Below are positions 22,380 to 45,627 of a stretch of DNA of 64,000 bases, piece by piece. The notes under the pieces were generated by a model. The model was not told the DNA's origin and did not search any database. It saw nothing but the letters and a program-made list of their open reading frames with translations. The DNA is from a virus. A program made the translations under genes and the position numbers. The DNA lies in IMG/VR virus record IMGVR_UViG_3300020055_000005, positions 1-64,000 of that record; one strand, given 5' to 3'. Within the stretch, counting starts at the first letter, position 1. Every line of letters starts with the position of its first letter.

Positions 22380-23081
22380 TTAGAAGATTGGGTTCCCCTC
22401 TGAGTCTATTTCAAATAGAAATTCATCAGGGTCGTGGTCAAAATTACTACAATTACTTCCATCAGGATGATGGTATTTTACTTCCATATTAAATGAGATA
22501 CTATAACGATCTTTGTTACTCATGTTAGGTTCAACCATGTGCATCAAACCACTTGGGAACAGAATTAACCTTCCACTTCTTGGTTCGATATTATGACTCA
22601 TTCTAAACCTAGGTGAATTAGGATGGTCAGAAACCACCTTTGTGTCTTTATCTATTAATGAAATGCATCCTTCATCACCCTCTGCATGAACGTAAAATAC
22701 ACCACTATACCAACAACCATTATGTAAGTGTGGAGCATTCCATGCAGAAAAATCGTTAATATTAGCCCATGAGTTACCTATATTTACTGTACACTTAGTT
22801 TGGTCTATACGATGAAACGGTAAAACCTCATCTTTAAATTGTTGTTCTATCTTTCTCATCAATTGACTAAGTGCAGGATTTGATTCACAACCATCTACTG
22901 ATTGCCATCCTGTATATTGGTTAGATACTTGTCTACCAGCAGGGTCTCTCTTTCTCATACCATCCATTGCATCTCTGCACATTTTAAGATAGTCTTCAGT
23001 GACACCTCTACGTTGATCTAGTTCAGGGTCTAATAAATCCTTCTCAAATACAAAGTTTGGAAATAATAATCTAACTGCCAT
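22380..23081 (-). CDS. Putative 2OG-Fe(II) oxygenase (HxH type, TIGR02466-like)
   Basis: WANIN...HLH...SGVFY...LFPS.L.HMVEPN...RYSISFN. Confidence 0.85.
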   Translation of the reverse strand: MAVRLLFPNFVFEKDLLDPELDQRRGVTEDYLKMCRDAMDGMRKRDPAGRQVSNQYTGWQSVDGCESNPALSQLMRKIEQQFKDEVLPFHRIDQTKCTVNIGNSWANINDFSAWNAPHLHNGCWYSGVFYVHAEGDEGCISLIDKDTKVVSDHPNSPRFRMSHNIEPRSGRLILFPSGLMHMVEPNMSNKDRYSISFNMEVKYHHPDGSNCSNFDHDPDEFLFEIDSEGNPIF

Positions 23082-23964
23082 TATCTAAATCTAACTCCAA
23101 TTGATTTTCTGTTTCTTCACTTACAACTTTATGAAAAGGACATTCAGGTGGTGGTGATTCTTCTTTATAAAACTTACCCTTCGGTTGCCAGTATTCACCT
23201 TTTCTATATGCACCCATTTGTAATGATACATTTCTTTCTTCATCACTCAACCCCTTATGTCGACCCCACTCATCCATAGATTTTGCATATTTACCATCTA
23301 AGTGAGTTGTCACACTAGAACGATTCTCTTGAAATGTTTGATGGTCGAACTGCATGTACGATGCATTCCATTCTTCTCTTTTGAAAGGTACAACCTGACA
23401 TAGTGGTGTACCTTCCTTAATGGTAAATGATTTCTGTACCTTTGGATAAAATATGATTTGTGCATTATCCATGTTACTGTTAAATGTATCAGTATCAATA
23501 ATTCCTTGCCATGTTGCAAAGTATTGATTCTGAAATAAGAAGGGGTCTAAGTAGAAACATGAATAGCCTGGAGGTGTAACAATGTTCCAAGGGTTTCTCA
23601 TTTTGAATGCATCATTGACAGGGCCATGAGTACCCATGTATTCAAATGCATTTCCCATTTGTGTATGATTATGTGAAGGTGATGCATAACCATCGTTCTT
23701 ATCTTTAGTATAGAACTCTGTTGAATCGGAATCTGTTCCTACACCACAGTTAACTTCCATATCTCTATTTGCAACGAGATACCATCCCATCTTTAACCAG
23801 TCATCCATTGCAGGACAGGCACGTACTGTTGTTATACGTTTTCCATGTACATCCATACCAACCTTGAGGGTTTTCCACCACTCAGGTTGAACCGTTTTCG
23901 CAAGAACTGGTCTAAAGTTCTTAACCGTGTCCGTATCGTATGAATGGAATTCTATCGTCGGCAC
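23071..23964 (-). CDS. Conserved oxygenase-cluster protein (DUF6065-like)
   Basis: CPAMDDW, NPW.I.TPPGYSC, GIIDTD and GTPL.QV.PFKR pattern. Confidence 0.6.
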   Translation of the reverse strand: MPTIEFHSYDTDTVKNFRPVLAKTVQPEWWKTLKVGMDVHGKRITTVRACPAMDDWLKMGWYLVANRDMEVNCGVGTDSDSTEFYTKDKNDGYASPSHNHTQMGNAFEYMGTHGPVNDAFKMRNPWNIVTPPGYSCFYLDPFLFQNQYFATWQGIIDTDTFNSNMDNAQIIFYPKVQKSFTIKEGTPLCQVVPFKREEWNASYMQFDHQTFQENRSSVTTHLDGKYAKSMDEWGRHKGLSDEERNVSLQMGAYRKGEYWQPKGKFYKEESPPPECPFHKVVSEETENQLELDLDNGS

Positions 23965-24664
23965 TGTACTTCGTCCTCCTGTCTGTTAATTTAACCTCGT
24001 CTCCTCTGATTACTATGGAACGTCTATCCATGTATCTTGCACTTTCATTTGGTGCATCTGCACCATGAGGTATTCTACCATCAAATAAAACTAAACGATT
24101 TGGTACAAATTCCACTTCTGCAATTTGATGGTTTTTAATATGTTCGTTTCTTCCTTGAAGACCCTGTTGTGGTGAATCATAAATTCTTAATGTACCACCC
24201 CATTTAGGGTTCCAAAATCTGTTATAATAATATAAAAAAGATAAGTTCCAATCATCATGATCATCACAATCTGAGTGTGTAGTTCCATGACATCCATGTG
24301 TTTGAGAATTTAAACCTGCATACTGAAATCTAACCCACTCAAATTCAAAATCTGTTTGAAGTTTTCTATTAAACCAAATCGGAACGACTGCATCTAAACG
24401 ATCAATATCTCCTTCAAGATTGTCCCCACGAAGAAAACTTGCACCCCAAAAAGAATGCATGGGTAATCCTGTAGGATTGTCTCCACCGACTTGATTGGTT
24501 TTAGACCAAATTGATGTTCTAGTAAATAGGTTGTCTATGTGGTGATGAAGTTCATCACTTAAATAATTATCTATTACATAAACTTTATCTAAAGGCAACT
24601 CGCAAATTTTAAAAGGTTCGTCTAAGTAGACGACCTCTAATTGATCATCATCCTGTTTGACCAT
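23921..24664 (-). CDS. 2OG-Fe(II) oxygenase (prolyl-hydroxylase-like)
   Basis: HSD...W...WGG...PNRLVLFDGRIPH...RRS. Start placed at MVKQ (24664). Confidence 0.85.
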   Translation of the reverse strand: MVKQDDDQLEVVYLDEPFKICELPLDKVYVIDNYLSDELHHHIDNLFTRTSIWSKTNQVGGDNPTGLPMHSFWGASFLRGDNLEGDIDRLDAVVPIWFNRKLQTDFEFEWVRFQYAGLNSQTHGCHGTTHSDCDDHDDWNLSFLYYYNRFWNPKWGGTLRIYDSPQQGLQGRNEHIKNHQIAEVEFVPNRLVLFDGRIPHGADAPNESARYMDRRSIVIRGDEVKLTDRRTKYSADDRIPFIRYGHG

Positions 24665-25235
24665 TTCCCTGCGTTTCCATATAAGAGTCAGGAGCAAGTA
24701 ACGGTGTTGGTATAACAACACAGTAGTCATCTACTTCCTTTAAGAAATCCTCTCTAGTGTTATTAATTTCATCTTCGATTTGTACATAACAACACCACAC
24801 TGCATCAGCATATTCTGCAACTCTTCTGGCCGCTGACCTTCTAGGATGTGAAGACCCTTCTCTACCTGCAAAAACAACTTCAATCAAATCATCAAAACCG
24901 TATCTATGCACAACCTCTTTAATGAATTCATGACAAATATTATTGATTTCTTGTTTGTGTTGTTGATTTAAATTAAAACCGATAGGTGGTTCAGAGTTTT
25001 CAATGTATAGTTCAATCGCATCCTTTTCTTCATCTGTTAAGGGAAGTGCATCTTGTTTTTCAAAATCTACACCATCTTTCCATTTTACAATCTTAATTTC
25101 TAAGTCTGCGTACACTAACATTTCATAATCAAAACCCAAGTCAGGTGCATCGCAATTGTCAAAACTGTATCTCAAACCATTAGGTTTAGTGATTTGTAGA
25201 TTACCGTCTTCTGTAAATATTAATTCACTTTTCAT
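24648..25235 (-). CDS. Probable tail-fibre assembly/chaperone-like protein (DUF4376-like C-terminus)
   Basis: RYGFDD...AEYADAVW pattern resembling phage fibre-associated proteins. Confidence 0.45.
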   Translation of the reverse strand: MKSELIFTEDGNLQITKPNGLRYSFDNCDAPDLGFDYEMLVYADLEIKIVKWKDGVDFEKQDALPLTDEEKDAIELYIENSEPPIGFNLNQQHKQEINNICHEFIKEVVHRYGFDDLIEVVFAGREGSSHPRRSAARRVAEYADAVWCCYVQIEDEINNTREDFLKEVDDYCVVIPTPLLAPDSYMETQGNGQTG

Positions 25236-26881: not shown

Positions 26882-27583
26882 CTATGTAATCGGTGTTGCT
26901 GGCCACTGTTGTGACAATACACCATCCCATCTTGCGACAGGAGTTCTACCTTGTCTAGCATACGTTGCAGGTTGTCTGTTCTGATATGTGAAAGGTGTTT
27001 GACCTTGTCTCGCATACGTACTAGGTTGTCTGTTTTGATATGTGAACGGTGTCTGCGAGTTCGAAGGATTTCTATATGTAAACGGCGACCTGTGATTATA
27101 TGTAGAAGGTTGTCTTGCGTTTGCAATATAAGGATACGGTTGTTGTGCATCCCTAATGTTAGGTTCCTGTGCATTCTTAATAGTAGGTTGTTGTCCATTT
27201 CTAATGTTAGGTTCTTGTGCATTCCTAATATTAGGTTCTTGTGCATTTACTGGATTTCTATATGTAAATGGTGACCTATAGTTATATGTAAACGGTTGTC
27301 TTGCATTTGCACGATATGGAACCCTATATGTAAATGGCACTCTATATGTAAAAGGTTGTCTCGCATTCGCAATATAAGGAACACGATATGTGAAAGGTGA
27401 CTGATAAGTCACAGGTTGTTGTGCGTTAGCAGGGTACCTTGCACTGTATGTGAAAGGAGACTGATAAGTTACAGGCTGTTGAGCATTCGCAGGATATCTT
27501 GCGTTGTAAGTAAACGGTGCTTGGCTGTTGACCGTGGCACGAGCCTGACCTTGCATCGATTGTCTGTGGAAACCTGTTGCCAT
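26882..27583 (-). CDS. Pro/Tyr/Gln repeat protein, zipper partner A2 (233 aa)
   Basis: 26 Pro-delimited units of 6/8/10 aa (aa 24-215); GAGAGG RBS. Confidence 0.85.
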   Translation of the reverse strand: MATGFHRQSMQGQARATVNSQAPFTYNARYPANAQQPVTYQSPFTYSARYPANAQQPVTYQSPFTYRVPYIANARQPFTYRVPFTYRVPYRANARQPFTYNYRSPFTYRNPVNAQEPNIRNAQEPNIRNGQQPTIKNAQEPNIRDAQQPYPYIANARQPSTYNHRSPFTYRNPSNSQTPFTYQNRQPSTYARQGQTPFTYQNRQPATYARQGRTPVARWDGVLSQQWPATPIT

Positions 27584-27601
27584 CTTACTTAATTCCTCTC
27601 A

Positions 27602-28906
27602 TTATTTCGTACTAATATTATGAACCATTAAACTATTTGCAAAGAAGTTATGATGTGGACTGTCTACACCAAAGTGATAAACCATCTCTTCATCTGCTTC
27701 TTCTATAGATTCAATAATTGACTCTGATAAATTTTGTTTTAAAATTGCATTGTTGATGTCTTTAATTGCATCACCGATCTGCAATTCTCCGTTGACTTCT
27801 TTCATGTCATCGGCATGTCCTAATTCTACTTCTTTATTCCAATCTTCTAAATTAATAACCTTCCATCCCTGATCTTCAACATAGAATGGATGACCACCTG
27901 TTACTTTTAACCACCCACCGTCTGTAAGTTGTAGTTTATAAACTTTACACTCTCTTGGTTCCATGACATTTGATACACTTACTCTTTCCAGTTCGTTACT
28001 TTCTAGATTAAGTGAATACACCACATCACCCACTTGGATGTTTTCTATAGGTGTCATTGAAGTGTCACCCATCCAAACTTGTGTTCCAGCAGCGAAACAT
28101 CCTCCTCCACCGTAGAAGTAAACTGCTAAGAAACGGAAAGGATATGTATACGGTTGTTGCGAAGAACTAGGTTGTCTTGCGTTTGCAATATAAGGCACCC
28201 TATATGTAAACGGTGATCTAAATGCAACTGGTTGTCTTGCGTTAGCAATATAAGGTACTCGATATGTGAAAGGAGACCTAAATGCAACTGGTTGTCTTGC
28301 GTTTGCAGGATATCTAGCATTATACGTAAATGGTGTTTGACCGTTTGCAGGATATCTAGCATTTGCAGGATATCTAGCATCATACGTAAATGGTGTTTGT
28401 CCGTTTCTTATATTAGGTTGTTGTGCATTTACAGGGTTTCTATATGTAAATGGAGACCTATGGTTATAGGTAAACGGTGATCTGTGTTGATACGTAAATG
28501 GTGACCTATGTTGATATGTAAATGGTGACCTATGTTGATACGTAAATGGTGATCGACCTGTTGCCTGATACGTGAAAGGTGTTTGTGCGTTCCTTATATT
28601 AGGTTCTTGTGCATTTACTGGATTCTGATATTCTGCAGGTTGTCTTGCGTTTGCAATGTAAGGTGTTTGTGCGTTTGCAATGTAAGGATAAGGTTGTTGT
28701 GCGTTAGCAATATAAGGCGTCTGACTGTTTGCAATGTAAGGATAAGGATTTTGAGTTGCTTCTTGACCTGATGCATTATTCCACCCTGTAGGTGTCTTAA
28801 TATAAATCTGATCAACTGCTTTCCATGCTGTGGGAGTCTTTACCCATGCACCCCTAGTTGCATTCCAACCTGTAGGTGTTTTTACGCTTTGATTACCTGA
28901 TGCCAT
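27602..28906 (-). CDS. Pro/Tyr/Gln repeat protein A1 with three N-terminal KTPT-W repeats and a C-terminal Hint (intein-like) domain
   Basis: Repeats at aa 55-246, then GGGG|CFAAGT...TGGHPFY...VYHF...HNFFANSLMVHN-ISTK. Confidence 0.9.
   Translation of the reverse strand: MASGNQSVKTPTGWNATRGAWVKTPTAWKAVDQIYIKTPTGWNNASGQEATQNPYPYIANSQTPYIANAQQPYPYIANAQTPYIANARQPAEYQNPVNAQEPNIRNAQTPFTYQATGRSPFTYQHRSPFTYQHRSPFTYQHRSPFTYNHRSPFTYRNPVNAQQPNIRNGQTPFTYDARYPANARYPANGQTPFTYNARYPANARQPVAFRSPFTYRVPYIANARQPVAFRSPFTYRVPYIANARQPSSSQQPYTYPFRFLAVYFYGGGGCFAAGTQVWMGDTSMTPIENIQVGDVVYSLNLESNELERVSVSNVMEPRECKVYKLQLTDGGWLKVTGGHPFYVEDQGWKVINLEDWNKEVELGHADDMKEVNGELQIGDAIKDINNAILKQNLSESIIESIEEADEEMVYHFGVDSPHHNFFANSLMVHNISTK
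27617..28099 (-). other. Hint/BIL autoprocessing domain (aa 270-430), no homing endonuclease
   Basis: Cys1, block-B TxxHP, terminal His-Asn; the +1 residue is Ile. Confidence 0.9.
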
Positions 28907-35036: not shown

Positions 35037-35369
35037 TTAACTCCTCGTTACTCCTGGCGTTACAATCGCTTGTCCTTCTATAACTCTAGTTGTATTTGAA
35101 CCACTAGTTATATTTAGATCATAAACATATCTTCCAGCATTCAATGCAGCAGTTTGAGTGTCATCAAGTGATAATGTAACCTGTCCAGTTGCAGCTGCAA
35201 TACTAGTTCCAAATGTCGCAGAGACAGTAGAAGAACTATATGTTTTTCTTATCTGTGCGGCCGCAGTATATCCATTTAAGTCTAAGATATCACCTGCTGA
35301 GTCAGTCACATCAACAGTAATACTGAAGTCTGTTCCTTGATCTATGTATAGGTTTGCAATTATAGCCAT
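35037..35369 (-). CDS. Virion structural adaptor (Ig-like; QG.DF...YVYD...R..EG...TPGV)
   Basis: Motif pattern typical of small T4-like structural proteins; late promoter at 35375-35382. Confidence 0.75.
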   Translation of the reverse strand: MAIIANLYIDQGTDFSITVDVTDSAGDILDLNGYTAAAQIRKTYSSSTVSATFGTSIAAATGQVTLSLDDTQTAALNAGRYVYDLNITSGSNTTRVIEGQAIVTPGVTRS

Positions 35370-35377
35370 ATAACTAT

Positions 35378-36094
35378 TTATACCTGAGTGTTACTTGGGT
35401 TCTTAGAGAACCTTGCAGTTGGTACAGATTGATGTATTTTTTCTACAGTACCTGTTTTATTTACGTACACTTCACTTAATTTTCTAAGTGTACCATTATC
35501 ATTTACATATACTCCTTTCACTTTTGCAATCGGGCCTACAGTTCTAGTAGTTGAATATGGTGCTTGATATGTAAATGGTGACCTCACCGTGTAAGGGAAC
35601 TGATAGGTTACTTGATATATAAACGGTGATTGTGCATTCGCAATATATGGTGATTGTGCATTTGCAGTGACCCTATATGTTGACGGTGATCTATGTTGAT
35701 ACGTAAACGGATTCCTTGCGTTTGCAGGATTGGGTTGTTGTGCATTCCTAATATTAGGTTCTTGTGCATTTGCAATATAAGGACTTGGATTTTGTGCCTG
35801 ATATGTATTAGGTTGTCTTGCGTTTCCAGTCGCTCTATAAATTAAAGGTTGTCTTGCATTTCTAATATTAGGTTCTTGTGCAGATGTAGGGTTTCTATAT
35901 GTAAACGGAGACCTATGGTTATAGGTGAAAGGACTCTGTTTAGTTGCACGATATGTAAATGGTGACCTTGCAATATACGGATAAGGTGTTTGACCAATAA
36001 GAGGTTGTCTTGCCTGATAAGTCGTTTGACCTTGCGCTTGATAAGTTGTAGGTTGTTGTGCAATATATGGTATTTGATAGTATCCTGTTGCCAT
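35378..36094 (-). CDS. Pro/Tyr/Gln repeat protein, zipper partner B2 (238 aa)
   Basis: MATG start; even-spaced Pro units; C-terminal VYVN..G repeats. Confidence 0.85.
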   Translation of the reverse strand: MATGYYQIPYIAQQPTTYQAQGQTTYQARQPLIGQTPYPYIARSPFTYRATKQSPFTYNHRSPFTYRNPTSAQEPNIRNARQPLIYRATGNARQPNTYQAQNPSPYIANAQEPNIRNAQQPNPANARNPFTYQHRSPSTYRVTANAQSPYIANAQSPFIYQVTYQFPYTVRSPFTYQAPYSTTRTVGPIAKVKGVYVNDNGTLRKLSEVYVNKTGTVEKIHQSVPTARFSKNPSNTQV

Positions 36095-36095
36095 T

Positions 36096-37256
36096 TTATA
36101 TTCCTAATGCCTGTCCATAAGTTGCGTTTAATGATATCATACCATGACTATATGTTGATGTATATACATTATTACTTGAATCCACACCCTTAACTGTGAA
36201 ACTAACACCTTGTGCTTGTGTCCATGTAGTACCATTAGGGTTTGGGCCGTTTGGTGTTACACATGCCTTCCACAGGAATTGTCTTGCACCACTAGTTGGA
36301 ACACTATAGTAAGTACCTGAACTATATCCAGCGTTAGTTGGTAATGGCCCTGAACTATAAGAGTAACAATAACTTGAACTACAGTCTTTACCACTACATG
36401 CTTGACTTGATACATCATATTTTACTGTAAATGTGGAACTGGTTGTCAATAGACCTTGATATAAAATGTAATCAGAATAAACAGTCGCCTGATATTGATT
36501 TGTATAACCAAACCACAATGCCTTAATAGAACTTTGGGCAGTTGCATTTGAGAACTCCATTGAACACCCTACCTCAGGTGGAGGGTTTGTGGATGCTCTT
36601 GATTGCGTAGTATACCAGTACCCAGCTGAACCAGTACCAGGCCCCCAAACTTGTTCTAGTGGGTCATAGATATATGCAGCTGGTTGTCTTGCATTATAAG
36701 ACGATCTTGCGTTTGCAATGTATGGATAAGGTGTTCTTCCTATAAATGGAGACTGATATGAATATGGTGTTTGACCAATTGTAGGCACTGGTTGTTGTGC
36801 GTTACTAGGTGATTGATATGACTGTTGTGCATTTCTAATCACTGGTTGTTGTGCATTTGTAGGATTTCTATATGTAAACGGTGACCTATAGTTGTACGTA
36901 AACGGTGATTGTTTATTTGCTGGTACCTGATATGTAAATGGTGTCTGCGAATTTGCAATATAAGGATTCGCTTGTTGTGCCGAATATGTAAATGGTGATC
37001 TGTGTTGATAAGTAAACGGAGACCTAACAGTGTAATTGAAAGGTTGTTGTGCGTTTCTTATAAACGGAGATTGTTGAACAGCAGGTGTCCTATATGTTAC
37101 AGGTTGTCTGTTGTTGTATGTTAGGGGTTGTCTTGCCTGTGCAGGTGTTCTACCAGTTGCCTGTTTGGTTTCAGGTGATTGTGCGTTAACTACTGCTTGC
37201 CCTTGATAGGGTTGTTGGAAAGTCGTCCCTGTGTTTATATAGATTTCATCAGCCAT
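36096..37256 (-). CDS. Pro/Tyr/Gln repeat protein B1 with C-terminal Cys-containing globular domain
   Basis: Repeats at aa 17-199; non-repetitive S/T/Y/G-rich domain at aa 200-386. Confidence 0.85.
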   Translation of the reverse strand: MADEIYINTGTTFQQPYQGQAVVNAQSPETKQATGRTPAQARQPLTYNNRQPVTYRTPAVQQSPFIRNAQQPFNYTVRSPFTYQHRSPFTYSAQQANPYIANSQTPFTYQVPANKQSPFTYNYRSPFTYRNPTNAQQPVIRNAQQSYQSPSNAQQPVPTIGQTPYSYQSPFIGRTPYPYIANARSSYNARQPAAYIYDPLEQVWGPGTGSAGYWYTTQSRASTNPPPEVGCSMEFSNATAQSSIKALWFGYTNQYQATVYSDYILYQGLLTTSSTFTVKYDVSSQACSGKDCSSSYCYSYSSGPLPTNAGYSSGTYYSVPTSGARQFLWKACVTPNGPNPNGTTWTQAQGVSFTVKGVDSSNNVYTSTYSHGMISLNATYGQALGI

Positions 37257-38337: not shown

Positions 38338-38536
38338 TTACTTTCTCCATCAATTGTTTTAACATCTCTTTCATTTCAGACATGTCTTCTTTAAGTGTAT
38401 TTATCTCTTCTGTTTGCATTTTAAATCTTTGTCTTCTCATTTTCTGCAACTTCCACGCTTCTTTATCTGTGGAAACGATTGCAGTAGTGTCTTCGTCTCT
38501 TTCTAAGTAAGAATGTCCGTCTACTCTAATACCCAT
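38330..38536 (-). CDS. Small conserved coiled-coil protein
   Basis: V.GH..L.RD..T.AI and EI..LK.D..E.K.ML pattern. Confidence 0.75.
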   Translation of the reverse strand: MGIRVDGHSYLERDEDTTAIVSTDKEAWKLQKMRRQRFKMQTEEINTLKEDMSEMKEMLKQLMEKVSG

Positions 38537-41500
38537 TATCCTGTCGCAATAGCTCTAAATGCAGAGATTAAAGGTGGTTTAGAAGTATTATACCCCTGTC
38601 CTACAATCTTAATTATGAATGAAGAGAACTCAGGTAAATCTTCAACGTTATACTCATACTCTTTGAAGTTTCTTCCATCTGCACCTATTTGTGAATCAGG
38701 TGAACCATCTGTGTTAAAGAATTCATATCCTATTTCATCAAACTTACGTTCATCGTCAACCTTAACGGTCTTAAATAAAACTTTAACATCAGTTCCTGCA
38801 TTTTTCATGCAATCAAACATAACTCTGATACCAGTTGCAGGGTTCTTCAAGTTAATCTTCTTAGTTACATAACAGAATGCGTTGTCTTCACCTAGTGATT
38901 CCTGACTAATATTAATTGAACTTGAGAATGAATTGTCATTTGAATTTTTCTGCAACCCATTAATTCTATTTGCAAATGCAATTCCACCTAAAGTTTGTGT
39001 ATCAACAAAAGGTGAAATGTATTGATTTCTAGAGAACATCATACACTTCAACTGCAGTGACCTTCCACTTGACATCTCGTTAATCTCATTGATTCTAGAT
39101 GCAATAATACTTGGTCTACTGAAGAATGCATTTTCGTTAAGTGTTACATTATCACCACTAATTCTTCTCTGATAAACTGTACCATCAATATATCCTTCAG
39201 GTGAATTCATTGGTGTTCCTACTGCATTAATAAACATTCCTGTATTTGCACAAAGAATGTTTTGTACTTGAGTGTGGATTCCATCATAGTAAATATTTTT
39301 AGATGTTACAACATTTCTTCCACCACCAACTGTAGTGTCTGTTGCTTTATAGTCTGAAACATAATCAGGGAATAGTGCTTGTCCTATTGTTGTAATATCT
39401 GAATTAGCATCTACGTCTGATTGAACTGCAGTTGCACTAAGATTAGGTGTAAACGAGAATGTATCTATTGTAAAGTCTGCACCAATACTAGTATGTGAAT
39501 CATCTGTTGAAGTGTTTATTGCACGAACTGGAATTCCACCTAGTGTTTGTCCAATTCCTTCTACAGTTGTTGTGAAACTCCATGAAGAACCAACTGTTAC
39601 TGTAACGACATCTCCTACTGCGAAATTATCACCTGCTTGTAATATTTTACATGCAGTAATATCTGATACACCATTTGATGTAGAAACTGTAATTCTAAAT
39701 GCGACTCCTGTTCCAGTTGTGTTTCCATCACTTGGAGTCGTATCAGCTTTAACAGCAGATATTGATACATTGTCTGAACCCAATGTACTTGAAGTTCCAG
39801 TGTTATACGGTAGAGTTCCGTGTATTAAATTATATGTACCATCAACAGGAAGTGTTCCTGAATCGGTTGCATCAGAAATTCTATACACACCTCCATTCCT
39901 ATCACCTATTACACCATTAATTTGTACATTAGATGAAGTGTTGTAATGTCCATGGAAGAAACTTTGCATTGTAATTGATGATGAATCTGCAACGGTTGAA
40001 ATTGGATTTTCAGGAATGTGGTTTTCCACATCATCTTCATCTGTGGAGTTGATATCTATTGTTTCATCTGCATTATACCAAGGTATGTCTGCATTTGTCA
40101 AATTAAAACTTGAACTCTGTGCAATATCAAACTCTGCATAGTTTAGACAATATTTAATATCGTCTTCTTGTCTTGCAGTCCATGTTGAACTGTTTTGTGA
40201 TACAAACATAGAACCCATATTAGAAGCTGCGACTGCAACCTCAAGACCGTTAGCAATATCTTTATCACCTGCATGAGCGTACCAAATTTCATATTGGTCT
40301 GAACTTGTATAAACCACAAAACAATATTCCATTTGTGATTTAATAATAATAGGGTTCTCAAAAGTAAATTTAGTTACTGCAGATGCATCTTCTGAAACAT
40401 TAATTTCATCAGGAGTTTTTGTAACTACTGACAAAGGTATAGGTGTTTGAGTTGGATAACCATTTTCCATACCTCTTAATTCAACAGTGATCTCTTTGTT
40501 AACATCTTTTGTTTTGAAATACAGGTCAATACTTGTTAACACCATATTTGTACCTACTGATTCAGGGGCTGCAAATGATTGTGCAACTGGGTCAAACCAA
40601 ATTCCTGTTGGGAACATACCTGCATCAAATCTAAAATCACCTATATCGATAGGTGGAAATCCTGGCGGAAGATTAGGTGGCCAATTAGGGTCATCACCAC
40701 CATCTGAAATAAGTGGGCCATCGCCTGGGCCCTCAGGGTCTTCAGCACCAATTTCGTCTATTTGTGTTTGAAGATCATCAATTCTATCGTCTAATTCTGT
40801 AAATGGATTAGGGCCTGGGTCTGATTCATTAAAGGTTGCATTGATGGTTTCACCTCTAGTTGTTATTGTTCTCGAATCATTAGTTGGAACTCTTGTAATT
40901 CTAGAAGTTCTTGTAGTTACTGTATGTCTATCAATATTTGCAACCATACCTGTTGAGGTATACAATGCAGTTGCAGATGATACTGGATTTGGTGAATTAT
41001 ACTTTTGTGAAGTTACAATTAATTCTTTAGTACCACTTGTAAAGGTATTTGCACGGAGATAGAATCGTGCCTTCAATCTACCATTTGCATCAGTCTGTAA
41101 TTGAGCACCTGTGTTACCTAATGTACCTGAAGTATGCGAAGGAGAATAATAATAAGTAGCACTTGGGCTTCCATAAGTCCATCTTTCACTTCGCATTCGT
41201 GTACTAACATCTATACCATCAAAATAAACGTAATGATAAGTGTTAGGTTTTAATCCTTGACAAGTAACTGTGATAGTCCTTTGTTTCATGAACCTTTCAA
41301 GTTGAATATTTCTGACTCTATTTCTCTCGTCTACGGATACGTCAGTTGCATAATCAAACATCATACCATTACGTGCTTGAACTTCAGGGGTTTCTGTGAT
41401 CTCTCTTGTAAGGTCTATGCCTGGCTGCCATTCACCACCTTGTTCAGCAGACCCTGACCATGAACCTGAAGTTGATATCATAGGTTCTGTAGTCGTAACT

Positions 41501-44500
41501 GGTGTTCCTGTCCAAGTGGTTTCCCAATCATTCCAAAGTGTTCCTGTACCATTTCTTCTAAGACCTCGTAATTCTGCTTGAATTGCACTTAAATTAGATA
41601 CTGTTTGGGATGTAGGAGTAATAGAAGATGGTGTTCCAGGCCTTGTATCCATATCAGGACTGAGATTACATGTACCAGTAAATGATGTGACAAGGAATGG
41701 GTTAACATTAATTGATCTAGATGCTTGAGTTACAAACATAGATGTAAATGCTGTATCTGATGCCTTTCTCTCTGTATATGGAAGTGTTAGGAAATCACCT
41801 GTTTGTTGAGTGTGTACTAATGACCCTGCCTCTACTTCCATTGGGAAGTCTTGAGAAACATGAGAAGGTCTCAATTGACCCATTTTCATATCAATAGCGG
41901 CGTTATAATCAGTGTTTAATACATCACTTGCACGTTGATTCCTAAAGTTATCAACTAAGAAACCTGATTTAAATTTATCAAATCCATCTGCATCTAAAAT
42001 TTGTGTAGAACGTGTGTCTGATTCAAGTAATGACAATGTGGTTACTGTTTCTAATGCAGTAACCCTTTGAGATATTCTACCGATATCTCGCATTGTAAAT
42101 CTGCGATGATCTTTAGTTTTAACTCTGATGTCTTTAGGGTCTTTTGTAAATGCAGGTATTTTTAATTCTGCAATCTCTATTGCACCATCAACATGTGGTG
42201 GTCTTGTAGGTGTAATTCCTGCAATACCACTTGCAATTTGGAATTGACCTGATTTGTGCAAGAATAATTTATCAATTCTTGGAACATAAAATTTAAGGTC
42301 ACCTTGAATTGCAGATGCATCTTTAGGTGTAGGCATAATTGCAGGGTTAGTAGAATAATTAAATCCTGTATTAGTTTCTTTCTTATCTCTTGATGATTTA
42401 AAACTTACTCCATCTTCATAAGAAAAGTGTGCATATTCAATGATTGAACTTATACTCGATATATTTGTTAAGTCTACTGTTTGTGTTAAATCTTTATCAT
42501 ATAGTTGTCCTGCAACTGGTCTGTAGTCTAAACAATCTGAAAGTTCAAATGTTCCGTCAGGTTCATTACCTCCCAAGTCAACTCTGTTTGCAGCGTAAAT
42601 AGGAATGTCTTTGTAAGGAACACTATATGAATTTACATCAAAGAATTCTCCTGCACCATGAGAGAAGTAATCAAATACAACCAACACTTCACCAATTGGT
42701 GCAGCTCGTCCTTGTTTTCTAATTAATTTTGAGATACCATAGTATCCATCTTTTTGACCATCGTCAAAAAGGAAACTCTCTGTAATTTCTTTTGAACCTG
42801 CACTAAGTGAATCTATAGTTACCTGAGATTTATTGTTTTGTCCAACTGCAATCTCACCCTCTACAAATCTTTTCTTTGTTAGGTAATAGAAGTATGTTGT
42901 TGCACCTGCATTATAGTCAATTATAATTGCACGTGCATCTGAGGTTTGTCCTTTAATTTCTTCATGCAATTGTAATGCAGGAAAGGTCGCAAGGTCTTCT
43001 TGTAACGTTGCACTAGGAGTTATAGGAGCACTATCTACACCATCATAGATACCACGTATTTTAAATACATCTGCAACACCAAGTGTTATTTCCTGATCAT
43101 CCATTGCAGATGTATAAACACCTGAGTATCCTGCTGATCTTTTACCTGTTATTTTTAATACTCTACCTTTATGAAGTGTTTTTGATTTTCTCTGAGGTGT
43201 TGTTACTAGAACTGAATATGTTATTCTTAACACAACTCCATCATTTGCAGAACCAAAGTCTCCTAGTGTAATAGACTGACCACTACCGTTTGTTGCAGGA
43301 TTAGCGTCTTTATAACTTTCTATATCTAATAGGTCACCCTTACTAAATGTTGGGTTTGATGCTCCTGATATATCAACCACTGCAATTGAGAAGTTATCTG
43401 TATTTTGATCTTCAAATGCACCGTCTTGTTGTGCAATAGTTACTTCACCACTTCCGATAGTTTGTACTGTTTGTTTTTTGATGTGAATTAAATCACATGT
43501 ATGTTCACTGATGAAATCTCTTTCGTATGCGAAAATAGACACTGCTTGTTGAGGTCTATGGATTTGTGATCTAAGTCTAGTACAGGATTCACCAGTAAAT
43601 GATGTCTGTGTATTTGAACCTGAAATTGCACCACCAGTGTTTCTAACTGTCATTGAAGTGTCACTAGTGATTGCAGATACTGTTACTAATTCACCAGTAC
43701 CCAATCTTCTAATAACATCACCTACTCTTAATTGACTTGCAAATAACGTTTCAATACCAGTTACCGTAGCACTGTTTGCAGTAAATGTCAATTGACCTCT
43801 GAGAGAAAATTCTAAATCTTTCTTAATGTCTCCAAAGAAGTATTGTGTACTACCACCTGCAGTTGGTTCTTGAGTAATTAATCCAGCCTGTTCGTAGTTG
43901 AAGTTTACTACCCCATCATTCTGTGAATCTGTAATTGCAAAATCACCTTTACCGATACATGAGATTGCATCATTACCACTAAATGAACCGATTACATCGT
44001 GGATGTATAAACAACTTCTGTTAGGGTCATCGTATGCAATGATACCTGTTGCACCAGTAGCACTACCTGTAACGTGATCACCTGTTTGTGCAGTACCTGT
44101 ATGTGCAGAATAACTAATCTTAGTAAACATTTTTATATCAAATGCAGATAAGTTAAATTCTGTAGTATCTTCGTTATATTCTCCTGCAGTTGATGAACCT
44201 GTATGATGTGTTATGTCTCTTAAACGTGCATAACCGATTTGTTCAGGACTGTTTTGATCTGTTGTTAAGGGTTCTCTATTATTTGCGATAGGGCCATCAG
44301 ATGCATGTGAATCTGAAGTCATGTGATCAGAACCCATGTTCCAAAGTTTACATAGTTTATGTGCTTCTATGTTAGTTGCGTTAATACCCTTTGTGATTTC
44401 AGGTAAACCATGACAGTTAGTAACTCTAATAATGTTACCAACATTTGCAGTTGTCAACATGTCTTCTTCTGAGACTATTGTTCTTGCCTTAGGAAATGGA

Positions 44501-45627
44501 ACTGTTTCTGAACCTGTTTTTGCAACTTCAAAACCTTGTACGTATGCTTTTCCAGGCGACATCTGCATGACAAATTTAGTTTCATCACCACCGACATCTT
44601 TTTTGAACATTCCATTATTTGTTTCATCATTTAAGTGTTCTTTTAATTCGTATTCAAAGTTCTTTAATACAAAATCTCCACTTGCATCATGTGTTCTTCT
44701 TGCCATTGATTTTTCAAGAACATTATATGTTGGGTCAGTAATTTGTACTGCAATGTTACCTTTTTCAACCCTTGCAAGTTCAACAAAGTTTGAGTCTTCT
44801 ATACTATCAACTGGATATTTTTTAAGTGTTAAATCTAATTGTAATCTATCTGCACCAGCAGCGTTCTGATTTGAAGCACCAGTTGCATTGTCTTGTAATG
44901 TAGCATCTTCTGCATTGGAAATTAACTTTTCTTCGATGTTTAAACCAATTTTATAAGTTGGTTGAACACTATATTTTTCCAATATGAGACTTTGTGCATC
45001 TACTTTAATGAAAAAACCTCTGAGATAGATTACACCTTCGTCTAAATCTATCGCAGAACCTTGTCCTGTAGGTTTACTGGTATCACCAGTAGTTAAGACT
45101 TTAAATTCGTTGTTGTTTGTTCCAACAATTGAGTAAACACCAGCTGCGTTTACTGTAACTTCTTGTAATTCTTCTCCCTGTATAAATGTCATACGGTTAT
45201 CAAGACCGTTTACAACATACTTGAGGAACAGAGTCATCTCATCTGTTTGATTGTTTACAGTTTCTTTAGGAGTAGATTTTTTAACTTTTGCGATAACACC
45301 TGAAGTTTTACCCTGAAGAAATTTACCATGGAAGGATGTTCTATAGGTTTCTACATCAGCGTCACCTGCTGTGTTTGGGTTTTCTGTACTTACTTTTACA
45401 TAGTACAATTCGAGATCGATATCAGTTCTGATTCCATCAACGATAGAACCATTTTTAAAAATATGATTACCAAATCTTTCAATTTGGTTTTGAAGAATTG
45501 ATTGTGATTGCGTTAACTCTCTTGCTTGAAGAGGTCTACCTGCCTTAAATAGTATTTTATGATATTTTTTACTATCATCATAATCATCGAAGTAAGGTGC
45601 AATATTTAAATCGGTTTTCTCTGGCAT
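38536..45627 (-). CDS. Very large virion structural protein (VrlC/DUF4815-like)
   Basis: PYFDDYD..K.Y..ILF..GR.LQARELTQ.QSILQ.Q, FKSGFLVDNF and DPVAQSF motifs. Confidence 0.88.
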   Translation of the reverse strand: MPEKTDLNIAPYFDDYDDSKKYHKILFKAGRPLQARELTQSQSILQNQIERFGNHIFKNGSIVDGIRTDIDLELYYVKVSTENPNTAGDADVETYRTSFHGKFLQGKTSGVIAKVKKSTPKETVNNQTDEMTLFLKYVVNGLDNRMTFIQGEELQEVTVNAAGVYSIVGTNNNEFKVLTTGDTSKPTGQGSAIDLDEGVIYLRGFFIKVDAQSLILEKYSVQPTYKIGLNIEEKLISNAEDATLQDNATGASNQNAAGADRLQLDLTLKKYPVDSIEDSNFVELARVEKGNIAVQITDPTYNVLEKSMARRTHDASGDFVLKNFEYELKEHLNDETNNGMFKKDVGGDETKFVMQMSPGKAYVQGFEVAKTGSETVPFPKARTIVSEEDMLTTANVGNIIRVTNCHGLPEITKGINATNIEAHKLCKLWNMGSDHMTSDSHASDGPIANNREPLTTDQNSPEQIGYARLRDITHHTGSSTAGEYNEDTTEFNLSAFDIKMFTKISYSAHTGTAQTGDHVTGSATGATGIIAYDDPNRSCLYIHDVIGSFSGNDAISCIGKGDFAITDSQNDGVVNFNYEQAGLITQEPTAGGSTQYFFGDIKKDLEFSLRGQLTFTANSATVTGIETLFASQLRVGDVIRRLGTGELVTVSAITSDTSMTVRNTGGAISGSNTQTSFTGESCTRLRSQIHRPQQAVSIFAYERDFISEHTCDLIHIKKQTVQTIGSGEVTIAQQDGAFEDQNTDNFSIAVVDISGASNPTFSKGDLLDIESYKDANPATNGSGQSITLGDFGSANDGVVLRITYSVLVTTPQRKSKTLHKGRVLKITGKRSAGYSGVYTSAMDDQEITLGVADVFKIRGIYDGVDSAPITPSATLQEDLATFPALQLHEEIKGQTSDARAIIIDYNAGATTYFYYLTKKRFVEGEIAVGQNNKSQVTIDSLSAGSKEITESFLFDDGQKDGYYGISKLIRKQGRAAPIGEVLVVFDYFSHGAGEFFDVNSYSVPYKDIPIYAANRVDLGGNEPDGTFELSDCLDYRPVAGQLYDKDLTQTVDLTNISSISSIIEYAHFSYEDGVSFKSSRDKKETNTGFNYSTNPAIMPTPKDASAIQGDLKFYVPRIDKLFLHKSGQFQIASGIAGITPTRPPHVDGAIEIAELKIPAFTKDPKDIRVKTKDHRRFTMRDIGRISQRVTALETVTTLSLLESDTRSTQILDADGFDKFKSGFLVDNFRNQRASDVLNTDYNAAIDMKMGQLRPSHVSQDFPMEVEAGSLVHTQQTGDFLTLPYTERKASDTAFTSMFVTQASRSINVNPFLVTSFTGTCNLSPDMDTRPGTPSSITPTSQTVSNLSAIQAELRGLRRNGTGTLWNDWETTWTGTPVTTTEPMISTSGSWSGSAEQGGEWQPGIDLTREITETPEVQARNGMMFDYATDVSVDERNRVRNIQLERFMKQRTITVTCQGLKPNTYHYVYFDGIDVSTRMRSERWTYGSPSATYYYSPSHTSGTLGNTGAQLQTDANGRLKARFYLRANTFTSGTKELIVTSQKYNSPNPVSSATALYTSTGMVANIDRHTVTTRTSRITRVPTNDSRTITTRGETINATFNESDPGPNPFTELDDRIDDLQTQIDEIGAEDPEGPGDGPLISDGGDDPNWPPNLPPGFPPIDIGDFRFDAGMFPTGIWFDPVAQSFAAPESVGTNMVLTSIDLYFKTKDVNKEITVELRGMENGYPTQTPIPLSVVTKTPDEINVSEDASAVTKFTFENPIIIKSQMEYCFVVYTSSDQYEIWYAHAGDKDIANGLEVAVAASNMGSMFVSQNSSTWTARQEDDIKYCLNYAEFDIAQSSSFNLTNADIPWYNADETIDINSTDEDDVENHIPENPISTVADSSSITMQSFFHGHYNTSSNVQINGVIGDRNGGVYRISDATDSGTLPVDGTYNLIHGTLPYNTGTSSTLGSDNVSISAVKADTTPSDGNTTGTGVAFRITVSTSNGVSDITACKILQAGDNFAVGDVVTVTVGSSWSFTTTVEGIGQTLGGIPVRAINTSTDDSHTSIGADFTIDTFSFTPNLSATAVQSDVDANSDITTIGQALFPDYVSDYKATDTTVGGGRNVVTSKNIYYDGIHTQVQNILCANTGMFINAVGTPMNSPEGYIDGTVYQRRISGDNVTLNENAFFSRPSIIASRINEINEMSSGRSLQLKCMMFSRNQYISPFVDTQTLGGIAFANRINGLQKNSNDNSFSSSINISQESLGEDNAFCYVTKKINLKNPATGIRVMFDCMKNAGTDVKVLFKTVKVDDERKFDEIGYEFFNTDGSPDSQIGADGRNFKEYEYNVEDLPEFSSFIIKIVGQGYNTSKPPLISAFRAIATG

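What the first reader, a model, noticed from the sequence alone, without database searches (positions are those of the whole stretch)
27209..28474. A self-complementary 28-aa 'palindrome' shared by all four zipper proteins
SEEN: FTYN(H/Y)RSP-FTYRNP-x(N/S)AQxP-xIRN(A/G)xx(P/S) occurs in A1 (28391-28474), A2 (27209-27292), B1 (36819-36902) and B2 (35846-35929). In both pairs these copies sit exactly opposite one another, because the element is its own complement under the pairing rules. INFERENCE: it may be a relic of an ancestral antiparallel homodimer or hairpin that duplicated into heterodimers, and could act as the nucleation site for zipping.
Basis: partly seen in the sequence, partly recalled or inferred. 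Interest (0 to 1): 0.7.

Follow-up and report, generated by a model that had tools for sequence, protein, structure and literature searches.

The report
Self-pairing cassette in phage fibre proteins
A 28-residue stretch shared by four repeat proteins of an uncultured marine T4-like phage really is its own partner under the head-to-tail pairing rule these proteins follow, but it is a recurring, copy-number-variable building block of an undescribed two-chain fibre family, not a unique fossil or a required starting point for assembly.

Summary
Observation confirmed. All four minus-strand genes carry the element at the stated coordinates, with 23-25 of 29 residues identical in every comparison. 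In both pairs the copies lie exactly opposite each other in the one gapless antiparallel register that superimposes the prolines.

The element is four consensus modules, T8-T6-N6-R8. Here a chain switches from aromatic 'xTY' modules to 'NAQ/NIRN' modules. In about 60 homologous pairs T modules face N modules of equal length, so such a switch must face an identical switch. The four copies are therefore two independent occurrences.

- Each pair in the window also holds a second, degenerate copy, also in register.
- Homologous pairs carry 0 to 8 copies, mostly 44 residues apart, and copy number matches between partners (r=0.93).
- 19 of 66 pairs have no self-opposed copy.
- The element scores equally well against any copy, itself included, and is not the best-scoring stretch.

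It is also the best stretch of parallel DNA homology between the partner genes. Two natural hybrid genes with self-complementary repeats have their crossovers at such cassettes.

The scan had already reported the mirror rule for pair B of this genome.

The parts
27602..28906 (-). A1, 434 aa. N-terminal head with three KTPTGW-like repeats, then 26 Pro-delimited modules (aa 54-246), then a Gly run and a C-terminal Hint/intein-like domain starting at Cys270.
26882..27583 (-). A2, 233 aa, the partner chain. Its 26 modules have the same lengths as A1's read in reverse order.
36096..37256 (-). B1, 386 aa. N-terminal repeat arm plus a C-terminal globular domain.
35378..36094 (-). B2, 238 aa. Partner of B1, with a small C-terminal domain.
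28391..28477 (-). Cassette E1 in A1 (P144 to P172): T8-T6-N6-R8, HMM score 70 bits.
27209..27295 (-). Cassette E1 in A2 (P97 to P125), exactly opposite the A1 copy (i+j=269), 70 bits.
36819..36905 (-). Cassette E1 in B1 (P118 to S146), 69 bits. The closing Pro is replaced by Ser.
35846..35932 (-). Cassette E1 in B2 (P55 to P83), exactly opposite the B1 copy (i+j=201), 71 bits.
28577..28663 (-). Second, degenerate cassette copy in A1 (aa 82-110: YIANARQ / AEYQN / VNAQE / NIRNAQT), 29 bits. Faces A2 aa 159-187.
27023..27109 (-). Second, degenerate cassette copy in A2 (aa 159-187: STYNHRS / FTYRN / SNSQT / FTYQNRQ), 36 bits. In register with A1 aa 82-110.
37041..37127 (-). Second, degenerate cassette copy in B1 (aa 44-72), 32 bits. 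A cassette starts at residue 44 in several B-type homologues, both two-gene pairs and single-chain hairpins.
35624..35710 (-). Second, degenerate cassette copy in B2 (aa 129-157), 38 bits. In register with B1 aa 44-72.
28229..28333 (-). A different self-complementary cassette, E2, in A1 (aa 192-226): T8-N6-o6-T6-Y8, with its centre inside the VAFRS module.
27353..27457 (-). E2 cassette in A2 (aa 43-77), exactly opposite the A1 copy. Third-best A1/A2 DNA match (83% over 104 nt).

Best explanation
The element is the family's standard 'crossover cassette' in a two-chain, antiparallel, complementary fibre shaft.

Each chain is a string of proline-delimited modules of 6, 8 or 10 residues. Aromatic T modules (P-x-T-Y...) on one chain always face N modules (P-x-N-A-Q-x, P-N-I-R-N-A-Q-x or P-Y-I-A-N-A-x-Q) of the same length on the other chain. 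Pro faces Pro, Tyr faces Ala, Arg faces Ile and Phe faces Glu or Gln.

The cassette T8-T6-N6-R8 is the commonest way for a chain to switch from T to N modules. Its lengths are symmetric (8-6-6-8) and the code is symmetric. The partner chain must therefore make the same switch at the same place, read in its own N-to-C direction. Self-complementarity and the 'exactly opposite' position follow from that.

The cassette is a duplicable unit. It forms the core of a 44-residue super-repeat whose copy number varies between phages and matches between the two partner genes, so it sets shaft length. It is also the best stretch where the two partner genes are homologous in parallel. Recombination between partner genes there yields hybrid genes whose repeats are self-complementary.

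Status of each step:
- Shown: the rule, the register, the multiplicity and the hybrids.
- Inferred: that the chains physically pair as an extended antiparallel structure, and that cassette duplication and recombination drive length change.
- Not required, on the comparative data: a role as unique dyad relic or obligatory nucleation site.
For: 1. Pairing rule. Among 2055 matched modules from 57 pairs, T6 faces N6 585 times, T6-T6 0 times and N6-N6 0 times. T8 faces NIRN8 303 times and YIAN8 285 times, against 1 T8-T8. A cruder binary classification gives T opposite N in 1852 of 1972 module pairs.
2. Independent test. A log-odds matrix trained without the window gives A1xA2 260 bits in register against 13 for the next register, B1xB2 98 against 4, and at most 5 for non-cognate combinations.
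3. Orientation. Covariation is concentrated at antiparallel corners (T position 1 with N positions 5 and 7, z 26-29). The parallel corners show none (z about 1 or below).
4. Cassette as the standard switch. 88 of 338 T-to-N junctions are T8 T6|N6 N8, the commonest type. Four-module palindromes number 72 against 23.3 +/- 4.4 in module-order shuffles, and 55 of the 72 are T8-T6-N6-R8. The reverse order N8-N6-T6-T8 is nearly absent.
5. Multiplicity and co-variation. There are two in-register copies per window pair and 0-8 copies in homologous pairs. 122 of 145 chain-1 hits in A-type pairs are exactly opposite a chain-2 hit. Copy number in chain 1 against chain 2 gives r=0.93. The dominant spacing is 44 residues (40 of about 76 spacings).
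6. Parallel homology. The element is the top blastn match in 5 of 6 comparisons among the four genes.
7. Hybrids. L115/P0035 is the N part of an A2-type gene joined, within T6-N6-R8, to the C part of an A1-type gene with its Hint domain. It lies between an A1-type and an A2-type gene, and its whole repeat region is self-complementary (99 bits). In L114/P0009, A1 is 100% identical to the window's, and the downstream gene is the start of A2 joined at the E2 cassette to a different Hint-bearing tail.
Against: - No structure or binding data.
- The homologous pairs are related and contain internal duplications, so counts and shuffle statistics overstate independence.
- Cassette copy numbers and both hybrid genes come from short-read metagenome assemblies, where repeats are error-prone. 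L115 is only 1.9 kb.
- The 44-residue unit as a whole is not self-complementary, so self-complementarity is not needed for coordinated expansion.
- In pairs with a single copy the cassette lies near the middle (relative position 0.54-0.64). In pair A it occupies modules 12-15 of 26. A dyad relic would also predict this.
- The four window copies share codons somewhat more often than codon usage predicts (69% against 51%), so some concerted evolution or extra constraint on this copy is not excluded.
Confidence: 0.6

Rival explanations
1. Dyad relic. A1/A2 and B1/B2 descend from a self-complementary chain that formed an antiparallel homodimer. The element is the surviving symmetric centre.
For: The element is self-complementary and occupies modules 12-15 of 26 in pair A. 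In single-copy homologous pairs it lies at relative position 0.54-0.64. The four copies are conserved, and their synonymous differences argue against recent copying.
Against: There are two copies per pair here and up to 8 elsewhere, and 19 of 66 pairs have no self-opposed copy. In pair B the element is off-centre, at relative position 0.63. Outside the cassettes the chains are not palindromic: A1 aligned antiparallel to itself matches 19 of 38 prolines, against 27 of 30 for A2. Any symmetric T-to-N switch is automatically self-complementary. The self-complementary genes that were found look like recent recombinants lying between normal partner genes.
Confidence: 0.12
2. Nucleation or register-setting site. 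Zipping of the two chains starts at the element, which fixes the register.
For: The element is among the higher-scoring stretches of both duplexes: 53 bits in pair A and 41 bits in pair B over 29 positions. It is strongly conserved in all four chains.
Against: It has no self-opposed copy in 14 of 56 A-type and 5 of 10 B-type pairs that still obey the mirror rule. Multiple identical copies in one pair would promote out-of-register nucleation. It scores equally against self and non-cognate copies (30-56 bits), so it cannot choose the partner. It is not the top-scoring window, ranking 28 of 205 and 8 of 172. Single-chain fusions would start zipping from the turn.
Confidence: 0.12
3. Symmetric docking or hinge site. 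The locally two-fold-symmetric duplex segment is bound by a third component, such as a chaperone, a cross-linker or another fibre, or it forms a flexible joint. This would explain why one copy is kept nearly invariant in both fibres.
For: One copy per pair is much better conserved than its degenerate twin: about 70 bits against 29-38 bits. A cassette starts at residue 44 of chain 1 in several B-type homologues, hairpins included. A tail-fibre-assembly-like gene (LtfC-like) follows B2.
Against: No partner has been identified. Copy number varies from 0 to 8. The conservation equals that of the consensus module types found elsewhere in the chains.
Confidence: 0.08
4. Intrachain hairpin. Each copy folds back on itself (T8-T6 against N6-R8) to make paired side-knobs, like a cruciform, instead of pairing in trans.
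For: The self-score equals the trans score. This fold could accommodate an extra unit in pairs whose chains differ by 44 residues: L023, L039 and L048.
Against: The flanking modules continue the trans register without any gap on either side. This folding would break an otherwise continuous duplex. The length-mismatched pairs may be assembly errors.
Confidence: 0.04

Closest known systems
Needle domain of the T4 long-tail-fibre tip, gp37 (PDB 2XGF). Recalled from my own knowledge and named in the earlier scan note e1-5782688; not tested structurally here.
   Same: An extended fibre in which the polypeptide runs to the tip and back, so N-side and C-side segments lie antiparallel. The natural single-chain forms here have two complementary arms and a tip domain.
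   Different: gp37 is a single gene forming a homotrimer with His-x-His iron sites. Here there are two genes or one fusion, Pro-delimited modules of 6, 8 or 10 residues, a T/N complementarity rule, and no repeated HxH. No sequence match to any solved structure.
Palindromic sites in double-stranded nucleic acids (an analogy, not a family).
   Same: Antiparallel strands follow a symmetric complementarity rule, so a self-complementary site must face an identical site. Such a site can in principle pair in trans or fold in cis. Recombination between the two 'strands' (here, two genes) is possible only at such sites.
   Different: The units are peptide modules of 6-10 residues with two classes plus length, not four bases. 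The pairing is inferred from sequence, not shown physically.
Heterodimeric leucine zippers and coiled coils such as Fos/Jun.
   Same: Two different chains whose repeats are complementary, giving specific heterodimers in a defined register.
   Different: Those are alpha-helical heptad repeats, usually parallel. Here a Pro every 6-10 residues excludes helices, all module lengths are even, and the orientation is antiparallel.
Hint / bacterial intein-like domains (Pfam PF14890 Intein_splicing, PF01079 Hint).
   Same: The C-terminus of A1 has a Gly run, then Cys, and ends ...VHN, matching PF14890 at E=1.2e-11.
   Different: No C-extein nucleophile follows the terminal HN (the next residue is Ile), so classical splicing is not expected. 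This domain belongs to A1 but is not part of the 28-residue element.

Membership tests
Mirror-complementary two-chain phage fibre family (undescribed; defined here) | Adjacent genes whose Pro-delimited module lengths are mirror images, with one gapless antiparallel register. | tested here: met
   27 of 30 prolines coincide in pair A and 17 of 27 in pair B. None of 2000 shuffles reach these values. About 55 distinct homologous pairs behave the same way, for example 70 of 74 and 64 of 70 prolines.
Mirror-complementary two-chain phage fibre family (undescribed; defined here) | T-type modules face N-type modules of equal length. | tested here: met
   Class table, binary classes, and window pairs scored with a matrix trained on other pairs.
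Mirror-complementary two-chain phage fibre family (undescribed; defined here) | Physical antiparallel association of the two chains. | not testable with these tools
The AlphaFold2 single-sequence model of a hairpin form had pLDDT 33.
T4 gp37-type needle (chain-reversal fibre) | The chain runs to a tip and returns, giving antiparallel arms. | tested here: inconclusive
   Single-chain homologues have two complementary arms around a non-repeat tip. This is sequence-level evidence only.
T4 gp37-type needle (chain-reversal fibre) | Repeated His-x-His metal-binding motifs and sequence similarity to gp37. | tested here: not met
   No HxH repeats. No PDB sequence match. No Pfam or PHROG tail-fibre hit on the repeats.
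Collagen-like triple helix | Gly at every third residue (G-X-Y). | tested here: not met
   Modules are 6, 8 or 10 residues with Pro at the boundaries and almost no Gly periodicity.
Alpha-helical coiled-coil zipper | Heptad repeats compatible with helices. | tested here: not met
   A Pro every 6-10 residues and even periods.
Splicing intein (for the A1 C-terminal domain) | N-terminal Cys/Ser, C-terminal His-Asn, and a Cys/Ser/Thr at +1 of the C-extein. | tested here: not met
   Cys270 and the terminal HN are present and PF14890 matches at E=1.2e-11, but HN is followed by Ile-Ser-Thr-Lys-stop. The domain is Hint/BIL-like, not a classical intein.

The most novel reading that the evidence does not exclude
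Self-complementary cassettes are the joints that let a two-gene protein 'duplex' evolve. They are among the few places where the partner genes are homologous in parallel. Unequal or inter-gene recombination there could (a) change shaft length in both genes in step and (b) interconvert heteroduplex (two genes), hairpin (fusion) and self-pairing (hybrid) forms. This would be a protein-level counterpart of palindromic sites in nucleic acids, within a fibre architecture that has not been described.
Probability: 0.3. Interest if true: 0.85.

Novelty: categorically new. Interest (0 to 1): 0.62.

Why it matters
If the chains do pair as the sequences indicate, this family is a natural protein-protein recognition system with a readable, modular code: two module classes, three lengths and antiparallel orientation. 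Its register and partner specificity can be computed from sequence. Cognate pairs score 98-260 bits and non-cognate pairs 5 bits or less.

The cassette shows how such a code behaves at symmetric sites. It pairs with any copy of itself, it can be duplicated, and it is where the two partner genes can recombine. This matters in three ways:
- It bears on how phage fibres of tunable length (22 to 69 modules) evolve in step across two genes.
- It suggests simple design rules for non-helical heterodimeric protein 'zippers'.
- It warns that self-complementary cassettes are weak points for specificity.

It also removes an attractive but unsupported story: the element is not needed to explain assembly or origin.

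Tried and rejected
No result.
- AlphaFold2 on the natural single-chain form P0007 without an alignment: mean pLDDT 33, no usable model, so no fold search was run. I left the second structure job unused. Only about 11 length-variable single-chain homologues were available for an alignment, and the chains are not expected to fold alone.
- Named relatives. Megablast and tblastn against 50,697 phage records gave nothing for A1 or B1, and only a low-complexity hit to a mycobacteriophage for P0007.
- Pfam and PHROGs gave nothing on the repeats. PDB sequence search gave nothing. ESM Atlas gave only chance-level scores of 0.81 or less.
- Six literature searches found no description. One pelagimyophage paper says the tail-fibre proteins could not be identified.
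- My first regular expression for the element was too strict and suggested it was missing from most homologues. I replaced it with an HMM of the four copies.
- Apparent wholly palindromic single genes P0061 and P0014 are gene calls truncated at scaffold gaps inside normal A1-type genes that have normal partners. Rejected.
- DNA-level origin, with A2 as the antisense of A1: rejected. All four genes lie on the same strand, and the reverse complement of CCN (Pro) is NGG, not Pro.
- Recent gene conversion among the four copies: not supported. DNA identity is 78-85% with synonymous differences, and codon identity is 69% against 51% expected.
Full report
CONTEXT. The window is the structural module of a T4-like myovirus with about 36% G+C. 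PHROG matches identify the tail sheath, large terminase, portal, major head protein and baseplate wedge. No cultured phage in the phage collection matches the region.

Four minus-strand genes in the fibre region carry the repeats: A1 (27602-28906), A2 (26882-27583), B1 (36096-37256) and B2 (35378-36094). The motifs occur nowhere else in the window. The repeats are strings of modules that each begin with Pro and are 6, 8 or 10 residues long, so every length is even.

THE OBSERVATION. The coordinates in the finding translate on the minus strand to the peptides described. Including the leading Pro, the four copies share 23-25 of 29 residues. The next-best windows common to all four proteins reach at most 18 of 29 and are themselves degenerate copies of the same unit.

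One gapless antiparallel alignment superimposes 27 of A2's 30 prolines on A1 prolines; the next-best offset gives 15. For B1/B2 it is 17 of 27, with 12 next. None of 2000 module-order shuffles reach these values. In those registers the copies lie exactly opposite each other in both pairs, central Pro facing central Pro.

THE PAIRING RULE, TESTED INDEPENDENTLY. Scans of viral contigs returned 80 A-type and 31 B-type loci. Every A-type locus that is not cut short has an adjacent pair with closely matched module numbers, from 22 to 69, and about 55 distinct pairs show the same antiparallel proline register.

Among 2055 matched modules, aromatic T modules (P-x-T-Y...) face N modules (NAQ, NIRN or YIAN types) of equal length almost without exception:
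- T6:N6 585 times, T6:T6 0 times, N6:N6 0 times.
- T8:NIRN8 303 times, T8:YIAN8 285 times, T8:T8 once.

A residue-pair log-odds matrix trained only on non-window pairs scores A1xA2 at 260 bits in the true register against 13 for the next register. B1xB2 scores 98 against 4, and every non-cognate combination scores 5 or less. The favoured opposite residues are F-E, H-R, G-Y, I-R, P-P, A-Y and Q-T. Covariation between paired modules sits at antiparallel corners and not at parallel ones. The 'zipper' with a code is therefore a property of the family, although it remains a sequence inference.

WHAT THE ELEMENT IS. In module terms it is T8-T6-N6-R8, the point where a chain changes from T to N modules with symmetric lengths. 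In an antiparallel code that is itself symmetric, a T-to-N switch in one chain necessarily faces a T-to-N switch in the other. With lengths 8-6-6-8 the two are the same sequence. The 'exactly opposite' position and the presence in both members of a pair therefore follow from the rule. The four copies amount to two independent occurrences.

The arrangement is nevertheless a preferred unit and not a chance palindrome:
- It is the commonest T-to-N junction, 88 of 338.
- Four-module palindromes occur 72 times against 23.3 +/- 4.4 in module-order shuffles.
- 55 of those 72 are this cassette, while the reverse order is almost never seen.

These counts are inflated by relatedness and internal duplication.

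NOT UNIQUE, NOT CENTRAL, NOT ESSENTIAL. An HMM built from the four window copies finds a second, degenerate, in-register copy in each window pair: A1 82-110 facing A2 159-187, and B1 44-72 facing B2 129-157. Pair A also holds another kind of self-complementary cassette, T8-N6-o6-T6-Y8, at A1 192-226 facing A2 43-77.

Among the 56 A-type pairs, 14 have no self-opposed copy, 11 have one and 31 have several, up to 8. Among the 10 B-type pairs, 5 have none. In A-type pairs 122 of 145 chain-1 hits lie exactly opposite a chain-2 hit. Copy number in the two partners correlates at r=0.93, and the dominant spacing is 44 residues. The 44-residue unit reads T8-T8-[T8-T6-N6-R8] in one chain and [T8-T6-N6-R8]-R8-R8 in the other.

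Position varies. In single-copy pairs the cassette lies near the middle (0.54-0.64), and in pair A it occupies modules 12-15 of 26. In pair B and in multi-copy pairs it does not lie centrally.

HAIRPINS AND SELF-COMPLEMENTARY GENES. Eleven loci encode single chains that join a chain-1 head to a chain-2 tail. In ten B-type loci the two arms flank a non-repeat tip. One A-type locus (L110) continues directly after a '...YKGG' where A1 has 'GGGG-Cys-Hint'. In several of the B-type hairpins (L095, L096, L097, L104) cassette copies sit in both arms in exact register, so the turn is not the element.

A database search returned only 'hypothetical' proteins. Two apparently palindromic hits are truncated gene calls at scaffold gaps. 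Two others are more interesting:
- P0035 (L115) has a wholly self-complementary repeat region (99 bits) followed by a Hint domain. It lies between the end of an A1-type gene and the start of an A2-type gene. Compared with the closest full locus (L123), it is the N part of A2 joined to the C part of A1, with the junction inside T6-N6-R8.
- P0009 (L114) follows an A1 that is 100% identical to the window's. It consists of the first ~88 residues of A2 joined at the E2 cassette to a different Hint-bearing tail, and 11 of its 13 modules form a palindrome (self-score 69 bits).

This fits the DNA picture. The element is the best parallel DNA match in 5 of 6 comparisons among the four window genes. Because the N part of A2 pairs with the C part of A1, any such hybrid is automatically self-complementary. 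These genes therefore look derived from two-gene pairs, which is the reverse of the relic proposal. Both come from short-read assemblies and need confirmation.

NUCLEATION. Any copy of the element scores 30-56 bits against any other copy, itself included. It cannot discriminate partners, and several copies in one pair would invite slipped registers. It is a good but not the best stretch of either duplex, ranking 28 of 205 in pair A and 8 of 172 in pair B; the run of T8:R8 modules scores higher. Pairs without the element keep the mirror rule. A required nucleation role is thus unsupported, though a kinetic contribution cannot be excluded.

AGE OF THE COPIES. DNA identity among the four copies is 78-85%. 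About a third of identical residues use different codons: 69% share the codon, against 51% expected from codon usage. This argues against recent gene conversion and is compatible with selection on consensus modules plus some shared history.

COMPARISON WITH KNOWN SYSTEMS. The repeats match no Pfam, PHROG or PDB entry. The literature searches found no description. The nearest physical analogue I can name from memory is the gp37 needle of the T4 fibre tip, where the chain runs to the tip and back. The defining HxH motifs are absent here, and homology is not detectable. Collagen-like and coiled-coil periodicities are not met. The A1 C-terminal domain is Hint-like but lacks a +1 nucleophile.

LIMITS. 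Oligomeric state (1+1 or 3+3 chains), secondary structure and any post-translational changes are unknown.

An earlier follow-up in this scan (e1-5782688) reached the same mirror rule for pair B and mentioned the single-chain fusions. I reproduced both independently here.

VERDICT. The element is best read as the standard, duplicable, self-complementary crossover cassette of an undescribed two-chain fibre family. The relic and nucleation readings are not supported by the comparative data.

Noticed in passing
window 27602-28096 (A1 aa 270-434); L110:2908-4314: A1 ends in a Hint/intein-like domain directly after a Gly run: GGGG, then Cys270, ending ...VHN-ISTK. In the A-type single-chain homologue L110 the chain continues at the same point ('...YKGG-PPARAS...') into an A2-like arm and has no Hint domain. 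This fits a Hint domain that cleaves itself off or ligates A1 to the nearby N-terminus of A2.
   Followed up: partly
window 23921-24730 and 22380-23081 (minus strand): Two 2OG-Fe(II) oxygenase genes (PF13640 and PF13759) lie a few genes downstream of pair A. The same arrangement recurs in L112, L113 and L114. They could hydroxylate the Pro-, Asn- and Gln-rich fibre chains, but such genes are also common in marine phages.
   Followed up: partly
L114:928-3162: A 7.8-kb metagenome contig encodes an A1 100% identical to the window's. A2 is replaced by a 303-aa gene: the first ~88 residues of A2, then a short palindromic repeat, then an eight-Gly run and a different Hint domain. A1 would lack a full-length partner there. 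This is either a real variant or an assembly chimera.
   Followed up: partly
L115:1-1905: Tandem arrangement: end of an A1-type gene with Hint, then a hybrid gene (A2 N part + A1 C part + Hint), then the start of an A2-type gene. The two repeated segments differ in their identity to L123 (87% against 93%).
   Followed up: partly
L023, L039, L048 (compare L022, L038): Natural pairs in which one chain is 44 residues (one cassette unit) longer or shorter than its partner would require. These are either intermediates of length evolution or repeat mis-assemblies.
   Followed up: no
L107, L108, L109, L111 (and the A-type L110): A different module 'dialect' (PFTY / PASARGRY, PFTYQANARGRY, PFQQNYQN PY) in single-chain forms. 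It lacks the 28-residue cassette entirely but keeps self-antiparallel proline register.
   Followed up: no
window 28771-28885 (A1 aa 8-45): The A1 head contains three tandem ~14-residue repeats (VKTPTGW..., VKTPTAW..., IKTPTGW...) within one chain. This hints that a single chain may supply what a trimer usually supplies at an attachment site.
   Followed up: no
window 35037-35369 (minus strand): The gene immediately downstream of B2 matches LtfC-like / L-shaped tail-fibre assembly families (PF23926, phrog_3304, phrog_1084). This supports a fibre role for pair B.
   Followed up: no
window 38536-45627 (minus strand): A 2363-aa ORF lies just upstream of pair B. It may be the VrlC-like giant structural protein that bounds the 'host recognition cluster' described for pelagimyophages (PMC7029224). 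I did not test this.
   Followed up: no
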